In this document: one piece after another, positions 2,508 through 20,002 of the stretch
Position numbering within the stretch: position 1 is the stretch's first letter
Layout: each line of letters opens with the position of its first letter
Source: a virus
Length of the DNA: 38,980 bases
IMG/VR virus record: IMGVR_UViG_3300045988_065349
Reading direction: 5' to 3' (one strand)
Translations under genes and position numbers: made by a program
The notes under the pieces: generated by a model
Databases searched by the model: none
What the model saw: the letters and a program-made list of their open reading frames with translations, nothing else
What the model was told of the DNA's origin: nothing

Positions 2508-3119
2508 ATGCCTGAATTTGATCTGCGCGGCATGAAGGCCGCAAAGTACAATTACGACAAATCGCAGAAGAAAATCACATACGGCGAGGCTATGAGTATG
2601 GGCGAGGCCATGACGGCAAACCTCGAAATGAAATTTGCCGAAGGCCGCATCTATGCTGAATCCTCGCTTTCGGAGTACATGAAGAAATGCACCGGTATGA
2701 CGACCAGCGTCGGCGTGAAGTATATTCCCGACGATTGCCAAAAGGTGCTTTATGGCTTTTATGAGCTGAGCCGGTCGGTCGGCTCTACCTCGCCGAAGAC
2801 CGTCAAGAGCATGACGGCCGGCAGGACCTCGACAGGCCAGTACGTCGGACACGGCTTTTACAGCCCCGATATGATCGACGGCGTAGAGAAATTTACCGCC
2901 GTCTTTGTCCACAAGACGCTGTTTGGCCCGCCCAGCCGTGTCCTTCAGACGATGGGCGAGTCGATCACTTTCCAGACACCGACCACAAGCGGTGAGTCCC
3001 TCGTTGACGATCTCGGCCACCTGTTCGAGTGGTACACTTTTGACACCGAGGCCGAGGCCATTGCGTGGCTCGCTGCGTGCTTCACGACCGAGCCTACGGT
3101 AGTGACGGGGGCGGGCTGA
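2508..3119 (+). CDS. Major tail protein (phi13/TP901-1-like)
   Basis: RBS aaaggag. 203 aa, located just before the chaperone and tape measure pair. The sequence pattern resembles the phi13-family major tail proteins as I recall them. Confidence 0.8.
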   Translation: MPEFDLRGMKAAKYNYDKSQKKITYGEAMSMGEAMTANLEMKFAEGRIYAESSLSEYMKKCTGMTTSVGVKYIPDDCQKVLYGFYELSRSVGSTSPKTVKSMTAGRTSTGQYVGHGFYSPDMIDGVEKFTAVFVHKTLFGPPSRVLQTMGESITFQTPTTSGESLVDDLGHLFEWYTFDTEAEAIAWLAACFTTEPTVVTGAG

Positions 3120-5783: not shown

Positions 5784-7801
5784 GCGAGAGCATTCACACT
5801 TTGACGTTTGACGAGTTTGCATTTGCGAATTACAACGACAAAACGAAAAATGACCATACGAGCACCGAGATAGATTTAAGCAATCAAAACTCCAGAATGC
5901 TCTGCAAATTCGCATCAGCAAAAAATGTCGGTTGGGGGTTTAACCGGATTAAAAAAATCCGGGCGGGAATCTATATCAAGGAGCTAACGGCAATCTCAGC
6001 TTCTGGCCCCGTAATTATAAACACTGGAACGGAGGACAGCCTATTTTCGGCTACGACGGTGACGTATGCAACAAAACCAGCAGAAACAGCGCCATTTGGG
6101 CGTGGATACGTACAGGCCCAAGGGCAAGCGTATGCGGAATTAAGCATATCAGGGACCTATGGGGAAAGAAACGTATTTACAAACGGGATTGGCCTTGCTG
6201 CACAGATGGCAAGTGTTTGCAACGCATACACACCGGCAAGCGCAAATAAGCCGAAACTGGAAATAACGGTAGACGATAACGATCTTGTAAGGGTGGAAGC
6301 GTACTACTGGGACAGCACATATGGCGGTAAAACAATAACAAAAAGCTCCGGTGCAGATGTAACGATAGATGGAATACTGACGCGACAAAATGGACTTTGT
6401 TACAGTGAGGTGGCGCAATCCGGGATTTCTGGGGTGTGGCGTGCAAACGAAAACTCTGAGGAACACGAAATCCCGATGGCGGATGGGCAAGGTCAATCGT
6501 TAGTTTTCCCGTTAGGGACATTCGGTGCGCTGACACAGGTGCAAGTGCGGCCGAAGATAACGTCAAGCAACACGCTGACGTGGACGCCGGATACTTGGTT
6601 GACGATCAACCTTGAGGACGCAATCCCGCAGGCTATCCCGGTTAGCCCTGTGGGCGAATCGGTGGACAAGAACAGCCCGACGGTATTTCGATGGTCGCAC
6701 GTCATATCAACTGGATCAGCACAGACAAAAGCGGAACTCCAAAAGTCAACGGACGGCACGACGTGGACGGCGCTGGCAACCGTGACCGGCGCAGAAAACA
6801 GCTACACAGCCCCAGCGGGAACATTTAACCTCGGTGTGAATTTTTGGCGGGTGCGGACGTATAACGCCGACAATGTTGCTGGCGAGTGGAGTGGCGCGGC
6901 GCAGTTTATCTGCATCGGCGCTCCAGATGCTCCGATTGTGACGGTTGCCGGAACGCACCCGAGGACAGTCGCCACTTGGCAAGCCAACGGACAGCTGGCA
7001 TACCAGGTAGAAATCGACGGCGTTTACAGCTCCGGCACATACTACGGCACGGACAAAACGTGGACAGCTCCGATGTACCTCGAAGATGGTGAATACATCG
7101 TGCGCGTCCGCGTGCAAAACGAATATGCCATGTGGTCGCCGTGGGGATCGGCGGCGCTGCAAGTCGCCAACACGGCGGGGCCAGCGATCAATCTGACAGC
7201 AGAGGCCGGGGACACGGTGCGCCTCTCCTGGAGCGCTGCCGGAGGGTATCACTACAACTTTTACCTGATATACCGCGATGGGAAGCTCATCGCAAAAACG
7301 ACAGAGCACACATACACGGATCTGCGTCCCATCGGCAGCGTAAGCTACCAGGTGCGCGGGTGCTTTGACACAAGCTCCAATTACCGGCTGTCCAACACAG
7401 TGACGGTGACAGTATCTGTGCCGTGTGTGACGTTGATCGATCTTGATACAGGCGATGTGCTGCCGCTTCCCTACTCGGCCAGCACACACCGCACGACGGG
7501 ACGCAATCTGAGCCGGGGCGTACAGTCCGTGCAGCTTGCCGGGCGGCGATATCCGACGATAGAGCGCAGTATGCACTATGCGGAGACGATCTCGGTTGCG
7601 TGCGCATTCCGCGAGGCGGAGAATTGCGCGGCGCTTGAGGCGCTTGTGGGCAAGATGGTAACAGTAAAAACGCCGGAGGGCAAGATGGTGAGCGGGTGCC
7701 TCTCGGTGCTTGCGGCCACTGCGGACGGCGGCTTTTACACTACGTATCAGTTCGATGTGGAACAGGCGGACGTGGAGGAGGTTGTGGACATTGATTCGTG
7801 A
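5780..7801 (+). CDS. Distal tail (Dit)-like protein with a long N-terminal extension and FN3-like repeats
   Basis: GTG start overlaps the tape measure stop. The central region has repeated W...Y...V motifs typical of FN3 domains. The C-terminal ~125 aa resemble siphovirus tail-family (Dit) proteins. It sits immediately after the tape measure. Confidence 0.7.
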   Translation: MSESIHTLTFDEFAFANYNDKTKNDHTSTEIDLSNQNSRMLCKFASAKNVGWGFNRIKKIRAGIYIKELTAISASGPVIINTGTEDSLFSATTVTYATKPAETAPFGRGYVQAQGQAYAELSISGTYGERNVFTNGIGLAAQMASVCNAYTPASANKPKLEITVDDNDLVRVEAYYWDSTYGGKTITKSSGADVTIDGILTRQNGLCYSEVAQSGISGVWRANENSEEHEIPMADGQGQSLVFPLGTFGALTQVQVRPKITSSNTLTWTPDTWLTINLEDAIPQAIPVSPVGESVDKNSPTVFRWSHVISTGSAQTKAELQKSTDGTTWTALATVTGAENSYTAPAGTFNLGVNFWRVRTYNADNVAGEWSGAAQFICIGAPDAPIVTVAGTHPRTVATWQANGQLAYQVEIDGVYSSGTYYGTDKTWTAPMYLEDGEYIVRVRVQNEYAMWSPWGSAALQVANTAGPAINLTAEAGDTVRLSWSAAGGYHYNFYLIYRDGKLIAKTTEHTYTDLRPIGSVSYQVRGCFDTSSNYRLSNTVTVTVSVPCVTLIDLDTGDVLPLPYSASTHRTTGRNLSRGVQSVQLAGRRYPTIERSMHYAETISVACAFREAENCAALEALVGKMVTVKTPEGKMVSGCLSVLAATADGGFYTTYQFDVEQADVEEVVDIDS

Positions 7802-9104: not shown

Positions 9105-11942
9105 ATGATTACAGTAAACGCAAGCAGGCGTGAGCCGATCTGTCTGCGGCATCAGGGTGAAAACGACGCGATGCGGGTAGCCTTCCCTCTTTCAGCTTTT
9201 GAGGCAGACTGGCCGGGCGGCACACCTTTGCTGCTAGTCCAGCGTCCGCGCTCCAGCAGGGACGCGGAGGCGTACCCCGTGGCGCTTTCCGTGGACGGCC
9301 ACACAGCGTATTGGACGGTAAGCGCATCGGACATAGAATACTCCGGATATGGCAAGGCGCAGCTCCAGTGGCGCGTAGAGGACGTTCTTGTAAAATCCTG
9401 CATCTATGATACGGTGTGCGTTCCGTCGCTCCATGCAGGCGCAGAGCCGCCGGACGAGCCGTCCAAGCGCTGGTTCGATGCGATTCAGGCGCAGATTGGA
9501 GATCTTTCCAAACTGACGACAAAGGCAAAGGCTAACCTTGTTGCGGCCATCAACGAGGCGGCACGCTCTGGCGGAGGCTCCGGAGGAGCGGGCACCATCG
9601 ATATGCGCGTCGCGGATGGCTACATCCAGTACAGCAACGACGGCGGCGCGACGTGGGAAAACCTCATTGCCATTGCCGATCTCAAGGGCGCAGACGGTAA
9701 AGACGGAACGAACGGTACAGATGGCACAGACGGGCACACGCCCGTTATCACGGCGTCCAAGTCCGGAAAGGTTACAACGATCAAGGTGGACGGGGAAGCT
9801 GTCGCTACGGTCAACGACGGGGCTGACGGAACAAACGGAACGGATGGTGCTCCGGGCAAGGATGGCGTGACGCCGGATATCAAGATCGGGACGGTGACGA
9901 CGCTGCCCGCAGGAAGCGAGGCTACGGCCAGCATGGGCGGAACTGCCGCACAGCCTACGCTCAACCTCGGAATTCCGAAGGGCGCAGACGGGGACGATGC
10001 GGATGACGTGCCGGTTAAAAGCGTGAATGGCCAGACTGGCGCGGTTAAAACGAGCTGGTATTTCAATGTGACCGGCAGCGTGGAGTCCCCCGCGACGACG
10101 CAGACGGTTGCTCAGATCGTGGCCGCGCAGACGGCGGGATTTGCGCCTATCTGCAAGGCGGTACTCTCGGAGTTTAACGAACTTCCGGCGACACTTCCGG
10201 CGCTGCTGATCTCCGACATGGTCTGCGTTTTCGGCGGGATCGGGACAATTAACGGCATTACTTCTTACCTCGCTGTTATGATCAACGCCTTTGGGACTCT
10301 GGAGGTGACAACGAGCGATGTTGCATCCAAGGATGATATCCCCACGCTTCCGACGGAACTCAAAAATCCTTATTCGCTCAACATCAAGATCGGCGATACG
10401 ACGACGAGCTACGACGGAAGCGCGGCGAAAACCGTGACAATTCCGGAGGGCGGCGGTGCGGATGCATCGCTCGGCATTACCGGCGCGGCTGCCGGTGAAT
10501 TTCCGAAAGTGTCGGCGGTGAACGAAAACGGTGCGCCAACATCATGGGAAACTGTGGAAAGCGAAGAGGTGACGCTCGGTGGAGACGCACCGGCTCCAAC
10601 GGATGCACAGGTGTCCTCGGCGGTGAACACTTGGCTGACGGAGCATCCGGAGGCGACGACGACTGTACAGGACGGCAGTGTCTCCGTCGAGAAGCTCGGA
10701 TACGGCAAGCATGTCTACGGCAGCAAGCCGTACTTTTGCAACAGTGTAGGCTCCGGCGCAGTATCCTACGGTTCCATCGGCGTGGTCGTGCCGTGCAAGG
10801 CTGGCGATACGATCTACTGCAATTTTAATATGTCCCCAAACGGCGCGTACAAGAAGCCGCAGCTGCTTGCCGCGCTCCCGGAAAACCAATATGGTGCAAT
10901 CGCGCCGATTGGAACAATCGAAAAGGATGATACGACAAAGGCGTATACCGTGCCGGCATCCGCAACAACAGCAAAGGCGATGTATCTACCGCAAAATTTT
11001 GTTGGAATCCCGGCAGCAAACAACGGCTCCGTTGAGGATGCACTTGCGTGGATCAACAAAACCATGGGGACGGATGGGTCAAAATGCGCACAGAACGTAC
11101 CGTTTGAAGATTATGATGCATGGTATCAGACGGCACAGGCAGAGCTTTTCGACATTGACGAGAGCTGTAATAAGCTCATGTATGCCTCGCTGTATCAGGC
11201 TGTTTCGAAGCTCGTCGGGGCGAAGGTCGCCGTCCTCGGCGACAGTCTGACGGAGCAGAGCGCGTGTTCGTTTATCACCAGTGCGTACAATGACCGCTGG
11301 ATGGAAAACGTCTTGCGGGATACGGCGCTGACTGGCGATGACGGGAAAACCTACAAAGGCTCCGGATGGTTCGCGCTGATTGCCCGGAAGTATAAGATCA
11401 AGTGGTGGTGCGCCGGACACGGAGCGCAGTGGTGGTACTCCACGACCGAGCGGCCAAATGGCGCGACGGCGATGGTGCGCAAGCTGATCGACGGAACGGA
11501 CGAATTCGATTATATCGTGCTGGAATACGGCACGAATGATATCCTTTCCGGCTACACCCACATCGGCACAGCGGCAGACGAAGCCAGCGAGACGGCGACG
11601 ACCAGCTGCGGCGCGATCAAGTGGTGCATCGAGCAGCTGCAAACGCGATTCCCCGAGGCAAGCATTGTCGTAATTTTGCCGAACATCCGCAGCGGTGCGA
11701 ACGGAGAGTCGCCAGCAATGCAGCAGACGTATCTGGATACCGTCGTACCGATACTCAAGAAGTACGGCGTGCGGCGCGTCAACATGGCCGAGGACAGCGG
11801 CATTGTCAAAAGTATGATGTCCACCGATGGCGTTCACCTGCGCTGGCCGGTTGTGTCGAACAATGTCACACACTACACGAACGATACTCCGGCGGTGCGG
11901 AAATTCAGCAAATGCCTTGAGGCAGAGCTGCTGAAAGCGTGA
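9105..11942 (+). CDS. Tail fibre / receptor-binding protein: BppU-like N-terminus, collagen-like repeats, C-terminal SGNH (GDSL) hydrolase domain
   Basis: RBS gggagag precedes the ATG at 9105. N-terminal region carries an LVAAINEA motif. Two Gly-X-Y runs are present (GADGKDGTNGTDGTDG and DGADGTNGTDGAPGKDG). SGNH blocks are readable: VAVLGDSLTEQ, EYGTNDI and DGVHL. Confidence 0.8.
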   Translation: MITVNASRREPICLRHQGENDAMRVAFPLSAFEADWPGGTPLLLVQRPRSSRDAEAYPVALSVDGHTAYWTVSASDIEYSGYGKAQLQWRVEDVLVKSCIYDTVCVPSLHAGAEPPDEPSKRWFDAIQAQIGDLSKLTTKAKANLVAAINEAARSGGGSGGAGTIDMRVADGYIQYSNDGGATWENLIAIADLKGADGKDGTNGTDGTDGHTPVITASKSGKVTTIKVDGEAVATVNDGADGTNGTDGAPGKDGVTPDIKIGTVTTLPAGSEATASMGGTAAQPTLNLGIPKGADGDDADDVPVKSVNGQTGAVKTSWYFNVTGSVESPATTQTVAQIVAAQTAGFAPICKAVLSEFNELPATLPALLISDMVCVFGGIGTINGITSYLAVMINAFGTLEVTTSDVASKDDIPTLPTELKNPYSLNIKIGDTTTSYDGSAAKTVTIPEGGGADASLGITGAAAGEFPKVSAVNENGAPTSWETVESEEVTLGGDAPAPTDAQVSSAVNTWLTEHPEATTTVQDGSVSVEKLGYGKHVYGSKPYFCNSVGSGAVSYGSIGVVVPCKAGDTIYCNFNMSPNGAYKKPQLLAALPENQYGAIAPIGTIEKDDTTKAYTVPASATTAKAMYLPQNFVGIPAANNGSVEDALAWINKTMGTDGSKCAQNVPFEDYDAWYQTAQAELFDIDESCNKLMYASLYQAVSKLVGAKVAVLGDSLTEQSACSFITSAYNDRWMENVLRDTALTGDDGKTYKGSGWFALIARKYKIKWWCAGHGAQWWYSTTERPNGATAMVRKLIDGTDEFDYIVLEYGTNDILSGYTHIGTAADEASETATTSCGAIKWCIEQLQTRFPEASIVVILPNIRSGANGESPAMQQTYLDTVVPILKKYGVRRVNMAEDSGIVKSMMSTDGVHLRWPVVSNNVTHYTNDTPAVRKFSKCLEAELLKA
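9681..9875 (+). repeat. Collagen-like Gly-X-Y coding repeats inside the fibre gene
   Basis: Two runs of 3-codon periodic ggn-nnn-nnn repeats. Confidence 0.8.
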
Positions 11943-15486: not shown

Positions 15487-15711
15487 ATGCTGCGGGGGCT
15501 GCCGAGTCTGAGCCGCAGCGATTGGGAGCATTTGATCGACGAATGGATTCTTTCGGAGCGATACCGGGGAATCCTGAAACGGAAGATTCTTGACGATTGG
15601 AGCCATGAGCGCATTGCCGAGCGCGAGGGCTTGAGCGTAAACGGCGTCAAGAAGATCATAGCGCGGTGCATGAATGTACTGCGGGAGCATGCAAAGGAGC
15701 CGCCCGGATAG
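15487..15711 (+). CDS. Small sigma-70 region-4-like HTH protein
   Basis: 74 aa with ...ERIAEREGLSVNGVKKIIARCM..., a helix-turn-helix of the sigma r4/LuxR type. It is the last gene of the late operon. Confidence 0.6.
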   Translation: MLRGLPSLSRSDWEHLIDEWILSERYRGILKRKILDDWSHERIAEREGLSVNGVKKIIARCMNVLREHAKEPPG

Positions 15712-15719
15712 GGCGGCTC
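15697..15719 (+). terminator. Hairpin at the end of the late operon (9-bp perfect stem GAGCCGCCC/GGGCGGCTC)
   Basis: Perfect inverted repeat spanning the stop codon. The downstream sequence is AT-rich but there is no clean U-tract. Confidence 0.4.
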
Positions 15720-15745
15720 ATGAATATTAAATTTTACTAAATGGG

Positions 15746-15774
15746 TTGACAATGAATTTTCGCTGTCATAATAT
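15746..15774 (+). promoter_or_regulatory. Sigma-70-type promoter TTGACA-17 nt-TAATAT
   Basis: Consensus -35, 17-nt spacer and near-consensus -10, in an AT-rich intergenic island about 130 nt upstream of the NYN gene. Confidence 0.7.
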
Positions 15775-15780
15775 ATAAGC

Positions 15781-15896
15781 ACAACGAAAGTAATGTTTGT
15801 TTACTACGTCCGTTGTGTCATTAACAGGCCCCCGGTATTAAGCACCCCATTCATACGGGGAATGCTGCAACCGGGGGCTTCATCATTTTTTAGGAG
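15781..15896 (+). promoter_or_regulatory. Structured 5' leader of the NYN gene (two hairpins, the second terminator-like)
   Basis: ACAACG/CGTTGT stem at 15781-15816. Long hairpin GCCCCCGGT...ACCGGGGGC at 15828-15878, with an inner CCCC/GGGG stem. This is followed by TTCATCATTTTTT and the RBS aggag. Confidence 0.5.
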
Positions 15897-15903
15897 CTGA
15901 CAT

Positions 15904-16611
15904 ATGAAAAAGACAGCAATTCTTGTAGATGGTGCGTTTTACAGAAAGCGGGCGTTTTACCTTCGGGGTGATAAAAGCCCGATTGACCGCGCAAACGAAT
16001 TGTATGCCTACTGCATGGCACACATTCGCGATGAAGGAAAGGATAGTAACCACAGAGAAGAGCGTGAACTGTATCGTATCTTCTATTACGATTGCCCGCC
16101 GCTGAAAAAGACAGTCTATCATCCTGCGTTGAAGTGCGGGATCGACTTTGGAAAATCCGATACTTATCGTTGGGCAAATGCATTTTTTGAAGAATTGAAA
16201 AAGAAACGCAAGGTCGCACTCCGAATGGGCCGGCTGTCTGATGCAGGCGCGCACTTTGCACTTTCGGCGGATGCTACAAAGGCACTGTGCAGAAAGGAAC
16301 GAAGCGTTGGGGATTTAACGGAATCAGATTTTACGATCTCCTTCAACCAGAAAGGCGTTGATATGCGCATCGGATTAGATATTGCGTCACTTGCGTATAA
16401 AAAACAAGTAGATCAGATAATTTTACTGGCAGGCGACAGCGACTTTGTGCCAGCAGCAAAACTGGCCAGACGAGAGGGAATTGACTTCATTCTTGATCCA
16501 ATGGAGGCAACCATTCCCAAGGACTTGTTCGAGCACATTGACGGGCTTAAGTCGTGCTGGAAGAAGCGGGAACATAAGAAGATGATCGTGCCAATTGAAA
16601 AACAGGATTAA
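15904..16611 (+). CDS. NYN-domain (LabA/DUF88-like, PIN-fold) predicted ribonuclease
   Basis: N-terminal AILVDGAF, KGVDMRIGLD and LLAGDSDFVPAAKLARREG match the acidic motifs of the NYN domain as I recall them. Lower GC than the flanks. Confidence 0.8.
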   Translation: MKKTAILVDGAFYRKRAFYLRGDKSPIDRANELYAYCMAHIRDEGKDSNHREERELYRIFYYDCPPLKKTVYHPALKCGIDFGKSDTYRWANAFFEELKKKRKVALRMGRLSDAGAHFALSADATKALCRKERSVGDLTESDFTISFNQKGVDMRIGLDIASLAYKKQVDQIILLAGDSDFVPAAKLARREGIDFILDPMEATIPKDLFEHIDGLKSCWKKREHKKMIVPIEKQD

Positions 16612-16628
16612 ACTATCATATGTGAAGG

Positions 16629-16666
16629 CAGCCACTCCGTAAGGGGTGGCTGTTTTTATATTTTTT
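16629..16666 (+). terminator. Rho-independent terminator after the NYN gene
   Basis: 10-bp stem CAGCCACTCC/GGGGTGGCTG, GTAA loop, then TTTTTATATTTTTT. Confidence 0.85.
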
Positions 16667-16767
16667 GTGCCCGAAAGGTGGCCGAAGAGTTGGTTTTTTG
16701 TTCTTCGTGGATGCCTCATAATGAGCATAGGAGCTGGCCAGCTTACTATTTTATCGGAGGTACTACT

Positions 16768-17403
16768 ATGGAATACGCAAGCAAGGGACTCGCGGGGACT
16801 GCGCTGGGATTTGGCATCGGCGGCGCCGCGATGAGTCTGGCAAACGGCGGGCTCGGCAATCTGCTGGGCGGCCTCGGACAGAACAACAAGCCGGCAGCCG
16901 CTGACGTCGTTGCAGCAGTTACGCCTGCCATGACGGTCGCCGCCATGCTCGCCGCGCGGCAGCAGGCGCCGACGTGCAGCGAGAACATGCCGGTCACGCG
17001 CTACGATCTCGACCGGGAGCAGAAGCTGGCCGCGAAGGACAGCGAGATCGCGCTGCTCAAGGCCAACACGTACAACGACGGCAAGATGCTGGAGGTGTAC
17101 GGTTATATCGACAGGCAGCTCAAGGACGTCCGTGAGACGCTGTGCAAGCAGGCCGTCCACAACCAGCGCACCGAGGACAGTTTCACGCTGGTAAAGCAGG
17201 ACGTCGAGTCCGTCCGCAAGGAAGCGCTTGATGCGATCAAGATGGAGGCCGAGCGCCGCTGCTGCGGTGACAACTCCATCGTCACCTACGTCAACGCGAC
17301 CTTTTATCCCAAGCAGGTCGCCGACGTCACCACGGGCACCGCGACCACGGCGCAGACGCTCTACAACCCGATCCAGAAGTGCGGCGGGTGCTGCAACAGC
17401 TAA
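16768..17403 (+). CDS. Unknown protein: Gly-zipper-like N-terminus, coiled coil, Cys-cluster C-terminus
   Basis: RBS ggagg. 211 aa. Segments: GLAGTALGFGIGGAAMSLANGGLGNLLGGLG, a heptad-like central region, then RRCCGDN ... KCGGCCNS. Confidence 0.65.
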   Translation: MEYASKGLAGTALGFGIGGAAMSLANGGLGNLLGGLGQNNKPAAADVVAAVTPAMTVAAMLAARQQAPTCSENMPVTRYDLDREQKLAAKDSEIALLKANTYNDGKMLEVYGYIDRQLKDVRETLCKQAVHNQRTEDSFTLVKQDVESVRKEALDAIKMEAERRCCGDNSIVTYVNATFYPKQVADVTTGTATTAQTLYNPIQKCGGCCNS

Positions 17404-17452
17404 GGAAAAGGGGCGGCAATAGCCGCCCCATCCTTAAAGGAGGAAATCTGCA

Positions 17453-17791
17453 ATGACAGTGACGATAGATCAGGCCATGCGCGGCGCGATGCGCTACGCA
17501 GACAATGAGGTCATCCCGCACCTGCCGGGCGGCAAGGGCATCGGGGCCGGGATCATGCTGGCCCTCATCATGGAGGGCAGCCGCGAGAAGATCCTCGCGC
17601 TGCGCGAAAATCCGGCGGTAAAGATGATGCAGATCTTCGACGAAGCCGGAAACATCGACCTCGACAAGCTCTATAACGCGGCGCGTCCGCGCTTTGAAAA
17701 CAAGCTGGCCGTATCGGTGCCGCTGCTGGGCGATCTGCGCTTTGATCAGAACGACGTGGACAAACTCTACCGATACATGCAGGAGGCGTGA
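17453..17791 (+). CDS. Unknown protein (112 aa)
   Basis: RBS aaaggagg. The coding-looking sequence carries a short hydrophobic GKGIGAGIMLALIM segment. Confidence 0.65.
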   Translation: MTVTIDQAMRGAMRYADNEVIPHLPGGKGIGAGIMLALIMEGSREKILALRENPAVKMMQIFDEAGNIDLDKLYNAARPRFENKLAVSVPLLGDLRFDQNDVDKLYRYMQEA

Positions 17792-17795
17792 CGAG

Positions 17796-18269
17796 ATGAA
17801 AGAATATATCGAAAAGCTTTACACAAAACTGCACGAGGCCATGGAGAAACCTGTGACGCTGGGCAGCGCGGAGGAAGTCGGCCTGTACGCAAAGACGATC
17901 CGCAGGCTGGAAAAGCTGAACTGCCGCGAAGACCAGCCGGAAGCGGCAGAGTTTGACCGAGAGACGGCCATGCAGTGGGCCGAGCGCATGCAGAATGCCG
18001 ACGGCTCGACCGGCCCGCACTGGACGATGGAGCAGACTTCCGCCGTCGCGGATGCGAGCGGAGCCGGGCACGGTATTCCGCAATGGGTTTTCGGCGTGAC
18101 GATGAACATGATGTACTCGGACTACTACGACGTGGCGCGGAAGTTCGGTGTCAACGTGCCGGAGTTCTACGCGGAGCTGGCGCGGGCGTTCTTGATGGAT
18201 AAGGACGGCCCCGGCCCGGAGGAAAAGCTTTGTGCGTATTACAGGTGCATTGTGAAGCAAAAACGTTAG
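17796..18269 (+). CDS. Unknown protein (157 aa)
   Basis: RBS ggagg about 10 nt upstream of the ATG at 17796. Soluble-looking, with a GPHWTMEQT...MNMMYSDYYDVARKFG motif. Confidence 0.7.
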   Translation: MKEYIEKLYTKLHEAMEKPVTLGSAEEVGLYAKTIRRLEKLNCREDQPEAAEFDRETAMQWAERMQNADGSTGPHWTMEQTSAVADASGAGHGIPQWVFGVTMNMMYSDYYDVARKFGVNVPEFYAELARAFLMDKDGPGPEEKLCAYYRCIVKQKR

Positions 18270-18476: not shown

Positions 18477-19517
18477 TCAATCGCTTTTTGAGCCGTTAGC
18501 ATTTTCGTTAGCAAGCTCGTAAAATGCGGCCATTTTATTTTGGGCTTTCAGGCGGTCGGACTTGGCGAGATGCGTATAGATATTGCGCATGGTATTGTAG
18601 TCAGACCAGCCGCCGATCTCCATTGCCTCAAGTTCTGACATGCCGAGATGATAGGCGAGGGATGCGAAGCTGTGACGCAGGCCGTGCGCACCGACATTCG
18701 GAATGCCAAGCTGCGCACAGACATCCTCCATGGTACGGTAGAGCGCACAGGGCGTACCCTCCCAAACGGGACCGGAAGTCTTGCCGGTGCGCTGCAAGGC
18801 GTCCAGAAGCTGCGGGATCATAATCGGGACATAGCGGGTGCTGGCGGCGGTCTTGGTCTGCTCCTTGCGGACGATCTTGTTATCCGCGTTTTGCACGGCG
18901 GAGGCGTGGACATGGATTGTCCTGCTCTTTATGTCGATATCAGAATAGTCAAGCGCCATGATCTCGGACCGGCGAAGAGAGTGCAGCGCAAGCAGCGCGG
19001 GAATTTCATATTTGCGGCCTTTCAGGAGCGGAAGGACTTTTAAAACGTCCTCTGGCTGCAAGAATGGCCGCTCTTTTTTCTGCCCGCGCGGGAGACGGAC
19101 ATCCGGGACGGGCACGCCGGCAGCGCGCAGGCAGGAGGCCGTAAAACCCCATGCGTTTTTCAGGGTCTTTACGGCGACCGGCTCGGCATCGATTACCTTC
19201 TGCCAGTCGATCTTAACGGGAGGCATATCCAGAACGCTCTGGAAGCGGTGTGCTTTGATGATCTCATAGCCGCGGATTGTCGCGGGAGATGTATCAGACG
19301 GAAGGGCAGCTATATAGTCCGTCATGAGGTCGCGGACGGTCTTGTCCGTCTTGTATTTGATTTCGCGCTGGTCGGCGCGGTGCTGGGCCTTGATGAGCTG
19401 CGCCTGCTTGATGCAGTCGGAGCGCGTGAGGGCGGAGACGGGGATGCTCTCGCCGCCAAGGCGGAGCTGGATGAACCATGTGCCGGATTTCAGTTTGCGA
19501 GGCTCGGGGACTTTCAT
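18477..19517 (-). CDS. int: Tyrosine integrase
   Basis: C-terminal catalytic region is readable (LALHSLRRSE, AHGLRHSFASLA, NIYTHL). ATG at 19517 has RBS gaggtgg and a 4-nt overlap with the upstream gene. The ORF-track extension to 19652 was judged non-coding. Confidence 0.9.
   Translation of the reverse strand: MKVPEPRKLKSGTWFIQLRLGGESIPVSALTRSDCIKQAQLIKAQHRADQREIKYKTDKTVRDLMTDYIAALPSDTSPATIRGYEIIKAHRFQSVLDMPPVKIDWQKVIDAEPVAVKTLKNAWGFTASCLRAAGVPVPDVRLPRGQKKERPFLQPEDVLKVLPLLKGRKYEIPALLALHSLRRSEIMALDYSDIDIKSRTIHVHASAVQNADNKIVRKEQTKTAASTRYVPIMIPQLLDALQRTGKTSGPVWEGTPCALYRTMEDVCAQLGIPNVGAHGLRHSFASLAYHLGMSELEAMEIGGWSDYNTMRNIYTHLAKSDRLKAQNKMAAFYELANENANGSKSD
18494..18512 (+). repeat. Direct repeat CGTTAGCATTTTCGTTAGC (candidate arm-type site, right of attP core, inside the int 3' end)
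   Basis: See 18264-18283. Confidence 0.5.
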
Positions 19518-20002
19518 AGCGCACCACCTCGCAGGCGCGCAAAGGCGCTTGCCGCTGCTTCTATTGGCCCGCGTATCCAGCCAACGCCGAGGTTGGACAG
19601 ATCGATAAGGAGCGCGCCCATGGCCAGCAGCACCAGTATACCGAAGATCCACGCAAGCGCCCGGTATGTTGCGAGCTGCTCCCGCGCGTGCTTCAGCTTC
19701 AACGCCGATATCTCGATTTTTGTATTGGCTTCCTGTAGCTTCTGCGTCAGCTCCTGCACAGCCTGCTGAAGCTCAGTCGGATCGACCGGGGCGTCGATGT
19801 CGCAGCAATCGTCCAGCGAGACACCGAGCATTTTGCAGATAGGGCCTGCCGTTCCCAGCGGCGGGTCTTTTGTCGCGCCGCGCAGGAAATTGTTGACGGT
19901 GGATGGGCTGAGCCCGGTTTCATCAACGATATCCTGATTTGTAATTTTAGGGTACGCGCCGCTTTTCGCTTTCTGGCATGCATCTACAACTTTTTGATTC
20001 AA
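19514..20002 (-). CDS. Membrane-anchored HTH protein (XRE-like HTH, coiled coil, C-terminal TM)
   Basis: TTG start. ITNQDIVDETGLSPSTVNNFLRG is HTH-like. TM segment ALAWIFGILVLLAMGALLI. Translationally coupled to int. Confidence 0.7.
   Translation of the reverse strand: MNQKVVDACQKAKSGAYPKITNQDIVDETGLSPSTVNNFLRGATKDPPLGTAGPICKMLGVSLDDCCDIDAPVDPTELQQAVQELTQKLQEANTKIEISALKLKHAREQLATYRALAWIFGILVLLAMGALLIDLSNLGVGWIRGPIEAAASAFARLRGGAL

What the first reader, a model, noticed from the sequence alone, without database searches (positions are those of the whole stretch)
15746..16666. Self-contained NYN-nuclease moron with a consensus promoter, structured leader and its own terminator
An AT-richer island lies between the late operon and attP. 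It carries a TTGACA-17-TAATAT promoter and a ~120-nt leader that folds into two hairpins, the second a long GC-rich stem followed by U-rich sequence just before the RBS. It also carries a 235-aa NYN/LabA-like PIN-fold protein with the acidic motifs intact (VDGAF, KGVDMRIGLD, GDSDF) and a strong terminator. This is the layout of a lysogen-expressed moron. A prophage-expressed NYN RNase is a plausible single-gene abortive-infection or exclusion factor, or a host RNA modulator. I do not know of a described phage defence or conversion system built on it. The leader could be an attenuator or ligand-sensing element, and I could not match it to a riboswitch class by eye.
Basis: partly seen in the sequence, partly recalled or inferred. 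Interest (0 to 1): 0.7.

Follow-up and report, generated by a model that had tools for sequence, protein, structure and literature searches.

The report
Prophage NYN nuclease with conserved leader RNA
This is a self-contained prophage cassette in which a conserved structured RNA (the orphan Staphylococcus small RNA Teg147) sits directly in front of an NYN-family RNase gene, a pairing found across thousands of phages and bacteria that looks like an RNA-controlled toxin or defence module but has never been tested.

Summary
Window 15746-16666 holds a sigma-70 promoter, a two-hairpin leader of about 123 nt, a 235-aa NYN-fold protein with its acidic residues intact, and a terminator.

The main new result is that the second leader hairpin is not a generic terminator. 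It is a divergent member of Rfam RF03535 (TEG147), an S. aureus small RNA of unknown function. A covariance model built here finds this element directly upstream of the NYN gene in 86 of 87 phage and genome sources and 77 of 80 viral loci. It is strand-specific and covaries strongly: 89% of cells are paired against 70% in shuffles, with 300 compensatory cells against about 82 expected. In S. aureus, TEG147 ends 18 nt before an orthologous NYN gene.

The cassette moves as a unit. It typically sits in lysogeny modules, between the cI-like repressor and the integrase, and in the rexAB slot of E. coli lambdoid phages.

The anatomy matches the experimentally characterised RCd22-AbiF system and type III toxin-antitoxins. 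My best reading is a leaky terminator RNA that limits the nuclease and probably binds it. Binding, toxicity and defence are all untested. No paper in the searched library describes the pairing.

The parts
15746..15774 (+). Sigma-70-type promoter: TTGACA, 17-nt spacer, TAATAT
   Evidence: One search gives a 10 of 12 match. Across the family, 71 of 84 loci have a promoter matching at least 9 of 12 positions, with the -10 box ending a median of 37 nt before P1. Homology to relatives L093-L096 begins at 15767, inside the -10 box.
15779..15818 (+). Hairpin 1: a 5'-proximal stem-loop with an 8-bp outer stem (GCACAACG/CGUUGUGU). It is variable in sequence and size across the family.
   Evidence: Fold. 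Across 84 loci the longest uninterrupted stem in this region is only modestly longer than in shuffles (6.6 bp against 5.8 bp, Wilcoxon p = 2e-6). I treat it as a weak, non-universal feature, possibly a 5' stabiliser.
15819..15888 (+). TEG147-like leader RNA element. It consists of a UUAAC linker; P1 (15826-15836 paired with 15870-15880); an internal loop of AUUA (15837-15840) opposite GCA (15867-15869), which is sarcin-ricin-like; P2 and P3 (15841-15848 paired with 15857-15866); an apical loop AUUCAUAC (15849-15856); and a U-rich tail.
   Evidence: Model R1 scores it 62.0 bits (E = 4.5e-13) on the + strand and 12.7 bits on the - strand, and it is the only copy in the window. Rfam RF03535 scores it 39.0 bits, below the gathering score of 56.1, with E about 1e-6. 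Covariation is shown.
15892..15896 (+). Ribosome-binding site AGGAG, 7 nt before the ATG
   Evidence: Read from the sequence. There is no room for a promoter between the hairpin and the RBS, so the gene can only be expressed by read-through of the hairpin.
15904..16611 (+). NYN-fold nuclease gene, 235 aa, a member of phrog_5783
   Evidence: Pfam NYN E = 1e-9. phrog_5783 E = 5.6e-89. AlphaFold2 model with pLDDT 83. Best PDB fold matches are 2qip (LabA-like) and the MARF1 NYN domain, 5yaa. Six acidic residues are invariant.
16629..16668 (+). Intrinsic terminator of the cassette: a 10-bp GC-rich stem, GUAA loop, then UUUUUAUAUUUUUU
   Evidence: (site 16620-16661) and the sequence.

Best explanation
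Window 15746-16666 is one copy of a widespread, horizontally mobile two-component module: a structured leader RNA of the TEG147 family plus an NYN metal-dependent RNase.

Proposed mechanism:
1. Transcription starts at the cassette's own sigma-70 promoter.
2. The conserved hairpin with its U-tract, which ends 24 nt before the ATG, acts as a leaky intrinsic terminator. Most transcripts end as a small RNA of about 100 nt, and only read-through transcripts encode the nuclease.
3. The hairpin's conserved non-helical features (the sarcin-ricin-type internal loop and the A-U-A apical loop) are a specific recognition surface for the NYN protein. The excess RNA therefore also binds the nuclease and holds it in check or feeds back on it.
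4. The module would then behave like the RCd22-AbiF system or a type III toxin-antitoxin. If transcription or RNA stability is perturbed, for example by an infecting phage, active RNase is released. This would give a lysogen-expressed exclusion or abortive-infection function.

What is shown: the anatomy, the RNA structure and its covariation, the near-obligate RNA-gene linkage, the modular mobility, the lysogeny-module context, and (from the literature) accumulation of Teg147 as a discrete small RNA in S. aureus.

What is inferred: termination efficiency, RNA-protein binding, toxicity and the defence phenotype.
For: **The RNA structure is real**
- In a structure-blind MAFFT alignment of 82 non-redundant loci, RNAalifold recovers P1 and P3, and all 13 pairs show compensatory changes.
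- With P2 added, 89.4% of cells are paired against 70.0% in shuffles (0 of 500 shuffles reach this). There are 300 double-change cells against 81.6 expected. The covariation score is 0.62 against 0.25 in shuffles, and falls to 0.15-0.18 when partners are slid by one column.
- G-U pairs outnumber A-C pairs 43 to 16 among the 13 P1/P3 pairs listed, which points to an RNA transcribed from the gene's strand.

**The RNA is linked to the gene**
- The covariance model hits 86 of 87 sources and 77 of 80 viral loci plus S. aureus. Every hit is on the gene's strand and directly upstream.
- No other hit with E < 0.06 occurs in the ~554 kb, and none with E <= 0.01 in the ~460 kb.
- Conversely, 17 of 20 loci found by RNA pattern alone have the NYN gene immediately downstream.

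**It is the same RNA as Teg147**
- Rfam TEG147 hits above the gathering score sit upstream of NYN genes in S. hominis, Streptococcus and Peptoniphilus.
- In S. aureus the hit scores 86.6 bits and ends 18 nt before the ATG.
- Teg147 is listed as an expressed bona fide sRNA in S. aureus HG003 (PMC5826253).

**It looks like a terminator**
- At least 5 U in the 8 nt after P1 in 75 of 84 loci, ending a median of 25 nt before the start codon.

**Unpaired nucleotides are conserved**
- A24 98%, U23 89%, G21 79%, A61 94%, A41 99%, U42 100%.
- JAR3D rates the RF03535 internal loop a strong 7x6 sarcin-ricin match (PMC13085918).

**Context**
- cI-like repressor, then NYN, then integrase at prophage edges.
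- Directly downstream of cI in E. coli ev099 and Proteus phages.
- Beside a toxin-antitoxin pair and the integrase in Burkholderia phiE202.
- In the S. aureus nuSa-alpha island near a GmrSD gene.

**An experimentally characterised analogue exists**
- RCd22-AbiF has the same order of parts: SigA promoter, a ~100-nt RNA with a conserved motif, a terminator, no second promoter, an RBS, then a toxic prophage gene next to the lysis genes. The RNA acts in cis by termination and in trans by binding the protein.
Against: - No experiment on any member shows toxicity, RNA binding or phage defence.
- The only NYN defence candidate tested in the searched literature, HEC-09, has a different architecture and protected against none of the phages tried.
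- The leader has no tandem repeats, unlike classic type III antitoxins.
- NYN is not a known toxin-antitoxin toxin fold.
- Enterobacterial homologues keep a hairpin and U-run but with a different interior. What is universally conserved could therefore be termination rather than a specific binding surface.
- The window's own copy deviates at two conserved internal-loop positions (G21 to U; A61 to C, unique among 82 sequences) and has an interrupted U-tract. Control may be weaker here.
- Three orphan RNA copies without an NYN gene exist.
- In Moraxella Mcat4 the cassette lies after the terminase, not in a lysogeny module.
Confidence: 0.45

Rival explanations
1. Pure cis-autoregulation, not a toxin-antitoxin. 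The NYN RNase has other primary targets, such as incoming phage or host mRNAs. It recognises or cleaves the hairpin in its own 5' leader only to keep its own level constant, as eukaryotic Regnase-1 (a related PIN/NYN-like RNase) does with a stem-loop in its own mRNA.
For: It rests on the same linkage and conserved-loop evidence as the best explanation. The hairpin is part of the mRNA of every read-through transcript. The comparison with Regnase-1 comes from general knowledge and was not tested here.
Against: It does not explain why the element is built as a terminator with a U-tract in 75 of 84 loci. It does not explain why a discrete small RNA accumulates in S. aureus. It does not explain why orphan RNA copies persist without the gene.
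Confidence: 0.25
2. An attenuator read by something other than NYN. A host protein (for example a ribosomal or other RNA-binding protein that recognises sarcin-ricin or loop-E motifs), a phage antiterminator or a small ligand controls read-through of the hairpin, and NYN never touches it.
For: Sarcin-ricin and loop-E motifs are common protein-binding platforms, and JAR3D supports that motif here. The cassette works in very different hosts, from Firmicutes to Proteobacteria, which would suit a universally conserved host factor. Rfam classifies TEG147 as Cis-reg.
Against: There is no alternative antiterminator pairing and no separate aptamer. Only about 7 nt separate hairpin 1 from P1, and hairpin 1 is variable. 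No Rfam riboswitch or protein-binding leader family matches. The RNA is found essentially only with this one gene family, which is what a cognate partner predicts rather than a general host-factor site.
Confidence: 0.12
3. A lytic-cycle accessory. The NYN RNase serves the phage's own development, for example by degrading host mRNA or processing RNA, and the leader hairpin simply insulates it from upstream late transcription. There would be no role in lysogens.
For: In the window the cassette follows the lysis genes on the same strand. In Moraxella Mcat4 it follows the terminase.
Against: It has its own consensus sigma-70 promoter in most loci. It usually sits between the repressor and the integrase. 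It also occurs in a non-phage genomic island in S. aureus, where the RNA is expressed.
Confidence: 0.1
4. A generic terminator that hitch-hikes with the gene. The hairpin would have no specific function beyond stopping upstream transcription.
For: It has the form of an intrinsic terminator.
Against: Unpaired nucleotides are conserved at 80-100%, and all 16 pairs tested show compensatory changes, across loci whose proteins share only 53-71% identity with the window's and across several phyla. The orientation and the distance to the start codon are fixed. Generic terminators do not retain sequence like this.
Confidence: 0.03

Closest known systems
RCd22 ncRNA and AbiF_Cd of the C. difficile phi027 prophage (abiF motif RF03085 with an Abi_2 protein); bioRxiv 10.1101/2025.04.15.648962
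   Same: The order of parts is the same: a SigA-type promoter, a non-coding RNA of about 100 nt carrying a conserved motif, a Rho-independent terminator, no second promoter, an RBS, then a single prophage-borne gene predicted to target RNA, beside the lysis genes. The RNA motif is tightly linked to one protein family across phyla (for RCd22; here).
   Different: The RNA family differs (no RF03085 match). The protein fold differs (NYN, not Abi_2/HEPN-like). Here the conserved motif is the terminator hairpin itself rather than two motifs placed ahead of a separate terminator. Toxicity and RNA-protein binding are demonstrated for RCd22-AbiF and untested here.
Type III toxin-antitoxin/abortive-infection systems (ToxIN, CptIN, TenpIN; in the broader sense also AvcID)
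   Same: RNA gene, then terminator, then nuclease gene, all from one promoter. They are carried on phages, plasmids and islands. The toxin is (here, predicted to be) an endoribonuclease.
   Different: There are no tandem repeats in the RNA. The protein is not of the ToxN/AbiQ family. No evidence shows that the nuclease processes or is bound by the RNA. AvcID (PMC10511110) shows that the class is not restricted to ToxN-like toxins.
Rfam RF03535 TEG147 (S. aureus Teg147, also called sRNA85 or srn_0960)
   Same: The structure is the same (P1, sarcin-ricin-type loop, P2, P3, U-tail), the apical sequence is nearly identical, and the position upstream of an orthologous NYN gene is the same.
   Different: The window copy scores 39 bits, below Rfam's gathering score of 56.1. 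The Rfam family name and description are S. aureus-specific, and its model gave only sub-threshold scores for the clostridial, lactococcal and streptococcal phage copies. The family defined here spans Firmicutes, Actinobacteria, Spirochaetes, Akkermansia, Planctomycetes and some Proteobacteria. No function is recorded for Teg147 in the papers found.
LabA-like/NYN nucleases (VPA0982, PDB 2qip; MARF1 NYN domain, PDB 5yaa; HEC-09 defence candidate)
   Same: A PIN-like NYN core with a conserved acidic pocket.
   Different: This family has an insertion of about 70 residues (roughly aa 65-135) in the core, by my reading of the secondary-structure layout. It has no OST-HTH/LOTUS or N-terminal HTH domain. 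The PADLOC NYN and HEC-09 models match only 45 residues around the core motif, at E = 1.8e-5 and 9e-4. HEC-09 gave no protection in E. coli.
Lysogen-expressed exclusion genes in the same genomic slot (lambda rexAB downstream of cI; sie/ltp genes between the integrase and repressor of lactic-acid-bacteria phages). This comparison is from general knowledge.
   Same: The position is the same: directly downstream of cI in E. coli and Proteus phages, and between repressor and integrase in Firmicute prophages.
   Different: The proteins are unrelated, and none of those systems is known to have a dedicated structured leader RNA.

Membership tests
Pfam NYN (PF01936) / LabA-like PIN-fold nucleases | Profile match above the curated gathering score | tested here: met
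   39.5 bits against a cut-off of 24.2, E = 1e-9, although only aa 137-197 align. The precomputed Pfam hit is PF01936 for nearly all of the listed homologues.
Pfam NYN (PF01936) / LabA-like PIN-fold nucleases | NYN/PIN-like three-dimensional fold | tested here: met
   The AlphaFold2 model has pLDDT 83.4. Foldseek's top PDB hits are 2qip, a LabA-like protein (E = 3e-6), and 5yaa, the MARF1 NYN domain (E = 6e-4). Top viral hits are NYN and LabA-like proteins.
Pfam NYN (PF01936) / LabA-like PIN-fold nucleases | Conserved acidic metal-binding residues | tested here: met
   D9, D63, D153, D159, D178 and D180 are invariant in six sequences spanning 40-62% identity and in 35 closer homologues. Whether they cluster in three dimensions was not checked.
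Pfam NYN (PF01936) / LabA-like PIN-fold nucleases | Ribonuclease activity | not testable with these tools
   This needs biochemistry.
PHROG phrog_5783 (phage protein family of unknown function) | Full-length profile match | tested here: met
   E = 5.6e-89, with residues 1-218 aligned to profile positions 1-220 of 246.
Rfam RF03535 TEG147 | Covariance-model score at or above the gathering score (56.1 bits) | tested here: not met
   The window scores 39.0 bits, E about 1e-6. Relatives do pass: S. aureus 86.6, S. hominis 63.9, Streptococcus 57.6, Peptoniphilus 56.3.
Rfam RF03535 TEG147 | Same secondary structure and apical sequence | tested here: met
   All model positions 1-60 align with every helix intact. 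The broader model R1, built from 82 loci, scores the window at 62 bits, E = 4.5e-13.
Rfam RF03535 TEG147 | Same genomic position, immediately 5' of an orthologous gene | tested here: met
   In S. aureus, TEG147 lies at L206 5923-5982 and the NYN ATG is at 6001. In the window the element ends 24 nt before the ATG.
Rfam RF03535 TEG147 | AGUA/GAA sarcin-ricin internal loop | tested here: inconclusive
   The window has AUUA opposite GCA. G21 is U (3 of 82 sequences) and A61 is C (1 of 82). [quoted passage not shown]
Type III toxin-antitoxin systems (ToxIN/CptIN/TenpIN) | RNA gene and toxin gene under one promoter, separated by a Rho-independent terminator | tested here: met
   No promoter fits in the 24 nt between the hairpin and the ATG.
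Type III toxin-antitoxin systems (ToxIN/CptIN/TenpIN) | Antitoxin RNA made of tandem direct repeats | tested here: not met
   Tandem Repeats Finder finds nothing at minimum score 30. The only direct repeat in the leader region is a 16-nt, 75% pair that is probably chance.
Type III toxin-antitoxin systems (ToxIN/CptIN/TenpIN) | Toxin of the ToxN/AbiQ family (PF13958) or CptN/TenpN | tested here: not met
   Only Pfam NYN matches.
Type III toxin-antitoxin systems (ToxIN/CptIN/TenpIN) | The RNA binds and neutralises a toxic protein | not testable with these tools
   This needs toxicity, rescue and binding assays.
abiF motif / AbiF (RCd22-AbiF_Cd) | abiF RNA motif (RF03085) and an Abi_2 family protein | tested here: not met
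   Neither the permissive E-value scan of the cassette region (15600-16800) nor the gathering-score scan of the whole window gives an RF03085 match. Pfam gives no Abi_2 hit. Only the architecture is shared.
Riboswitch (ligand-sensing leader) | A conserved aptamer plus an expression platform with mutually exclusive pairings | tested here: not met
   No riboswitch family matches at E <= 10. The only strongly conserved structure is the terminator hairpin itself. The region upstream of it is a variable hairpin plus a linker of about 7 nt. I saw no antiterminator complement to the 5' arm of P1 on inspection.
Known anti-phage defence systems (PADLOC-DB 2.0) | A significant full-length match to a system component | tested here: not met
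   There are only short core-motif matches: the NYN model PDLC01154 at E = 1.8e-5 over aa 150-194, and HEC-09 at E = 9e-4.

The most novel reading that the evidence does not exclude
TEG147-NYN is a new class of RNA-antitoxin (type III-like) abortive-infection or exclusion system, and the first built on an NYN/PIN-like RNase. A single non-repeated hairpin would serve both as the transcription terminator that sets the RNA-to-protein ratio and as the inhibitor bound by the nuclease. Its sarcin-ricin-type loop might mimic the nuclease's natural target, such as a ribosomal RNA loop. The module would be carried by thousands of prophages, including Stx2a-converting phages of E. coli and the nuSa-alpha island of S. 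aureus.
Probability: 0.3. Interest if true: 0.8.

Novelty: new variant of a known kind. Interest (0 to 1): 0.62.

Why it matters
- **A function for two orphans.** It would give a job to an orphan Rfam family (the S. aureus sRNA Teg147) and to a very large protein family annotated only as "NYN domain-containing" (phrog_5783, at least 8000 clusters at 90% identity).
- **A candidate for a well-known slot.** It offers a candidate function for the gene in the rexAB-equivalent position of many lambdoid phages, including Stx2a-converting phages, and between the repressor and integrase of many Firmicute prophages.
- **A broader principle.** It would extend the idea of an RNA that both attenuates and neutralises a toxic nuclease (ToxIN, RCd22-AbiF) to a new RNA fold and a new nuclease fold.
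- **It is easy to test.** The cassette is about 900 bp, self-contained and has E. coli versions, so the hypothesis can be tested directly.

Tried and rejected
- **Riboswitch or other known RNA class.** An Rfam E-value scan of the region and a gathering-score scan of the whole window gave only the sub-threshold TEG147 hit.
- **Classic type III antitoxin repeats.** None were found.
- **Known defence systems.** PADLOC gave only weak core-motif hits.
- **Solved homologue by sequence.** None in the PDB; the fold search was needed instead.
- **Leader peptide.** An ATG at 15805 opens an ORF of about 37 codons across the hairpins. It has no RBS, and most homologous leaders have no equivalent ATG (by inspection). 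Rejected.
- **Hairpin 1 as a DNA operator palindrome** (many copies read GTAAC-N4-GTTAC). Rejected because the arms covary freely between loci (GTACA/TGTAC, TTAAC/GTTAA, CATTAC/GTAATG) and no conserved regulator gene lies nearby. Its statistical support is only modest.
- **A conserved protein partner.** Neighbouring genes differ from locus to locus, so the three ORFs downstream in the window (16768-18269) are not part of the module.
- **Truncated E. coli copies as a sign of counter-selection.** The two O157-type copies inspected are interrupted by IS1203 at the same place in a decaying prophage, and most partial matches end at the same point, so this is probably one clonal event. Not informative.
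- **Literature.** Five searches found no paper linking NYN proteins to Teg147, RNA antitoxins or prophage exclusion.
- **A wasted fold.** The L006 fold started inside the hairpin because I gave the wrong coordinates. It should be ignored.
Full report
**1. The observation**

- The promoter scan finds TTGACA, a 17-nt spacer and TAATAT at 15746-15774, a 10 of 12 match.
- The leader from about 15775 to 15903 folds into two hairpins, with z = -4.9 and no shuffle out of 200 folding as well.
- Hairpin 2 alone is -34.4 kcal/mol, z = -6.0.
- The ORF at 15904-16611 encodes 235 aa.
- It matches Pfam NYN above the curated cut-off.
- It matches PHROG family 5783, of unknown function, over its full length at E = 5.6e-89.
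- A 10-bp GC-rich stem and T-run follow the stop codon.
- GC content falls to 0.46-0.47 across the cassette, against 0.53-0.65 in the flanks.

Two details need correcting.
- The U-tract after hairpin 2 is interrupted (UUCAUCAUUUUUU).
- Three further ORFs (16768-18269) separate the cassette from the integrase at 18477-19652 on the minus strand. The layout is therefore not strictly "late operon, then moron, then attP".

**2. The protein**

- An AlphaFold2 model (pLDDT 83.4) matches LabA-like VPA0982 (2qip) and the MARF1 NYN domain best in the PDB.
- It matches NYN and LabA-like proteins among viral models.
- By my reading of the secondary-structure layout, the NYN core carries an insertion of about 70 residues, roughly aa 65-135.
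- Six acidic residues (D9, D63, D153, D159, D178, D180) are invariant between homologues from Clostridia, Streptococcus, Burkholderia, Moraxella and E. coli phages that share only 40-62% identity.
- The family is very large. At least 8000 clusters at 90% identity pass E <= 1e-5. A capped scan gave 587 confirmed hits in species-representative genomes, and 451 in IMG/VR.
- Every name a source gives is generic: "NYN domain-containing", "LabA/DUF88" or "nuclease".

**3. The leader is a conserved RNA**

*First clue.* A permissive Rfam scan gave one notable hit. Positions 15823-15884 match RF03535 (TEG147) at 39 bits, below the gathering score of 56.1, with E about 1e-6. The apical part is nearly identical to the consensus. 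The same family then appeared at the same relative position upstream of the NYN homologues in the Dorea, Lactococcus and Streptococcus phages.

*Shared architecture.* I printed the upstream regions of 124 non-redundant loci. They share:
- a UUAAY linker;
- P1, 8-11 bp and variable in sequence;
- a YAGUA strand opposite CGAA;
- P2;
- a YCCC/GGGR helix closing an A..AUAAG loop;
- a U-run.

*Covariation.* I aligned 82 de-duplicated sequences with MAFFT, without reference to any structure.
- RNAalifold recovers P1 and P3, and compensatory changes occur at all 13 pairs.
- With P2 added, 89.4% of cells pair, against 70.0% in shuffles (0 of 500 reach this).
- 300 cells have changes on both sides, against 81.6 expected.
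- The signal collapses when partners are slid by one column: 49-57% paired, and covariation 0.15-0.18 against 0.62.
- G-U pairs outnumber A-C pairs 43 to 16 among the 13 P1/P3 pairs listed. This favours an RNA made from the gene's strand.

*Conserved unpaired positions*: A24 98%, U23 89%, G21 79%, A61 94%, A41 99%, U42 100%. An independent JAR3D survey rates the RF03535 internal loop a strong 7x6 sarcin-ricin match.

**4. Linkage to the gene**

- Covariance model R1 hits 86 of 87 sources. All hits are on the gene's strand and directly upstream, and no other hit with E < 0.06 occurs in those 554 kb.
- It also hits 77 of 80 viral loci plus S. aureus. Two of the misses have no upstream sequence in the contig. 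The third, L166, carries a recognisable divergent variant.
- In the window the element is single-copy and strand-specific, at 62.0 bits against 12.7.
- E. coli and Proteus phages have a different hairpin interior but keep the AGCCC...GGGC outer stem and the U-run. One compensatory change separates the two.
- Burkholderia and Moraxella copies still match R1, at 37-39 bits.
- In the reverse test, a 23-nt degenerate pattern from the RNA core found 20 IMG/VR loci. Seventeen have the NYN gene immediately downstream. Three are orphan copies.

**5. Link to published data**

- TEG147 hits above Rfam's gathering score lie upstream of NYN genes in S. hominis, Streptococcus and Peptoniphilus.
- In S. aureus, TEG147 scores 86.6 bits and ends 18 nt before the NYN ATG, with its own promoter upstream.
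- That locus lies in the island just upstream of the ssl genes. This agrees with published descriptions of Teg147 as a genomic-island RNA.
- Teg147 is also listed as a 60-nt bona fide sRNA expressed in strain HG003.
- I did not find any paper that connects Teg147 to this gene, or NYN proteins to RNA antitoxins or prophage exclusion.

**6. Modularity and context**

*Boundaries.*
- Nucleotide homology to relatives with about 75% identity (L093-L096) spans only window 15767 to 16567-16580. That is from the -10 box to near the stop codon.
- In more distant loci homology starts at 15819-15821, which is the start of the RNA element.
- A promoter matching at least 9 of 12 consensus positions precedes the RNA in 71 of 84 loci.
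- The U-tract has at least 5 U in 8 nt in 75 of 84 loci, and ends a median of 25 nt before the start codon. Only read-through can therefore express the gene.

*Neighbours.* The neighbouring genes vary, but the slot recurs:
- cI-like repressor (HTH_3 plus Peptidase_S24), then NYN, then integrase, at the prophage edge next to host genes;
- XRE regulator, then NYN, then integrase in Streptococcus Javan85;
- directly downstream of cI in E. coli ev099 and in a Proteus phage;
- between a toxin-antitoxin pair and the integrase in Burkholderia phiE202.

These are positions where temperate phages keep lysogen-expressed exclusion genes; that statement rests on general knowledge. One exception is Moraxella Mcat4, where the cassette follows the terminase.

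**7. Mechanism**

The closest characterised system is RCd22-AbiF in a C. difficile prophage. Its parts run in the same order: a SigA promoter, an RNA of about 100 nt with conserved motifs, a terminator, no second promoter, an RBS, then a toxic gene beside the lysis genes. The RNA lowers expression in cis by termination; deleting it raises expression 17-fold. It also neutralises the protein in trans by direct binding. Classic type III systems share this order of parts, and AvcID shows that the class is not limited to ToxN-like toxins.

I therefore favour a TEG147-NYN module in which the hairpin is both a leaky terminator and the nuclease's cognate RNA partner (confidence 0.45). The main rival is cis-autoregulation only (0.25). 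Less likely are a host-factor or ligand-controlled attenuator (0.12), a lytic-cycle accessory (0.10) and a generic terminator (0.03).

Evidence against a strict type III assignment:
- no tandem repeats;
- no ToxN fold;
- a different hairpin interior in Enterobacteria;
- the one tested NYN defence candidate, HEC-09, has a different architecture and gave no protection.

**8. The window's own copy**

All helices and the AUA apical loop are intact. The internal loop reads AUUA opposite GCA instead of AGUA opposite GAA. U at position 21 is seen in 3 of 82 sequences, and C at position 61 in 1 of 82. The same variant occurs in all near-identical phages. [quoted passage not shown] Together with the interrupted U-tract, this suggests a functional but somewhat divergent and perhaps leakier member.

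**9. Verdict**

The cassette in this window is an ordinary member of a very large family. At the family level, however, an orphan Rfam RNA is the obligate leader of a prophage NYN nuclease, and the architecture matches RNA-controlled toxins. No paper in the library I could search describes this, and it is directly testable. I rate it a new variant of a known kind, with interest 0.62.

Noticed in passing
L174 9252-9569 (minus strand), motif at 9265-9287: An orphan copy of the TEG147-like RNA with no NYN gene overlaps the 3' end of a truncated ToxN-family type III toxin ORF on the opposite strand (PF13958, E = 1.6e-18), next to an integrase. This may be a hotspot where RNA-controlled toxin cassettes replace one another.
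   Followed up: partly
L183 3634-3656 and L170 433-455: Two more orphan copies of the RNA core have no NYN gene downstream. In L183 the copy abuts a convergent lysin-like gene and a small membrane-protein ORF (my reading of the translations; no family search was run). Whether these are remnants or free-standing RNAs is unknown.
   Followed up: partly
window 15487-15711: A 74-aa ORF directly after the amidase gene matches sigma-70 region 4 and YlxM-like HTH families (PF08281, E = 5e-7). By eye, a GC-rich inverted repeat (GAGCCGCCC...GGGCGGCTC, about 15697-15721) overlaps its 3' end just ahead of the cassette promoter; the terminator scan did not flag it. It could be a small late regulator and the end of the late operon.
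   Followed up: no
window 16768-18269: Three ORFs lie between the NYN cassette and the integrase. The first is a 211-aa protein with no family match, encoded in a stretch of GC 0.63-0.65. The second is 112 aa with no match. The third is a DUF7841 protein (E = 2e-22). They are conserved in near-identical phages and partly in L093, but not in other NYN loci.
   Followed up: partly
L005 3273-3473 (Moraxella phage Mcat4): Immediately downstream of the NYN gene lie Rfam hits for C4 antisense RNA (71 bits), isrK (62 bits) and the c4 a1/b1 targets. This is a P1/P7-type RNA immunity region adjacent to the cassette.
   Followed up: no
L206 4750-4850 (S. aureus nuSa-alpha island): An azaaromatic (yjdF) riboswitch (99 bits) precedes a DUF2992 gene and a 2-thiouracil desulfurase-like gene just upstream of Teg147-NYN. 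A GmrSD_N restriction-type gene lies about 3.5 kb upstream.
   Followed up: no
L203 and L204 (E. coli O157:H7-type chromosomes), NYN at about 2622-3005: In the two O157-type E. coli genomes inspected, the NYN gene downstream of cI is cut after about 120 codons by an IS1203 insertion in a decaying prophage. Overall, 275 of 5426 complete genomes match the region and only 74 have most of it, and most partial matches end at the same point.
   Followed up: yes
L006 2441-2500 and L205 1432-1490: The enterobacterial leader variant (AGCCCAGCCCCGUUCGYAGACAAUWGUUAAUAUCURCAUAACGGCUCUGGGC plus a U-run) keeps the outer stem and the terminator but has a different interior. One compensatory C-G to U-A change separates the E. 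coli and Proteus copies. It may be a second RNA class for the longer (about 275-285 aa) proteobacterial proteins.
   Followed up: partly
window 15733-15748 and 15800-15815: A 16-nt direct repeat at 75% identity (TTTACTAAATGGGTTG and TTTACTACGTCCGTTG) spans the promoter and hairpin 1. It is probably a chance match.
   Followed up: no
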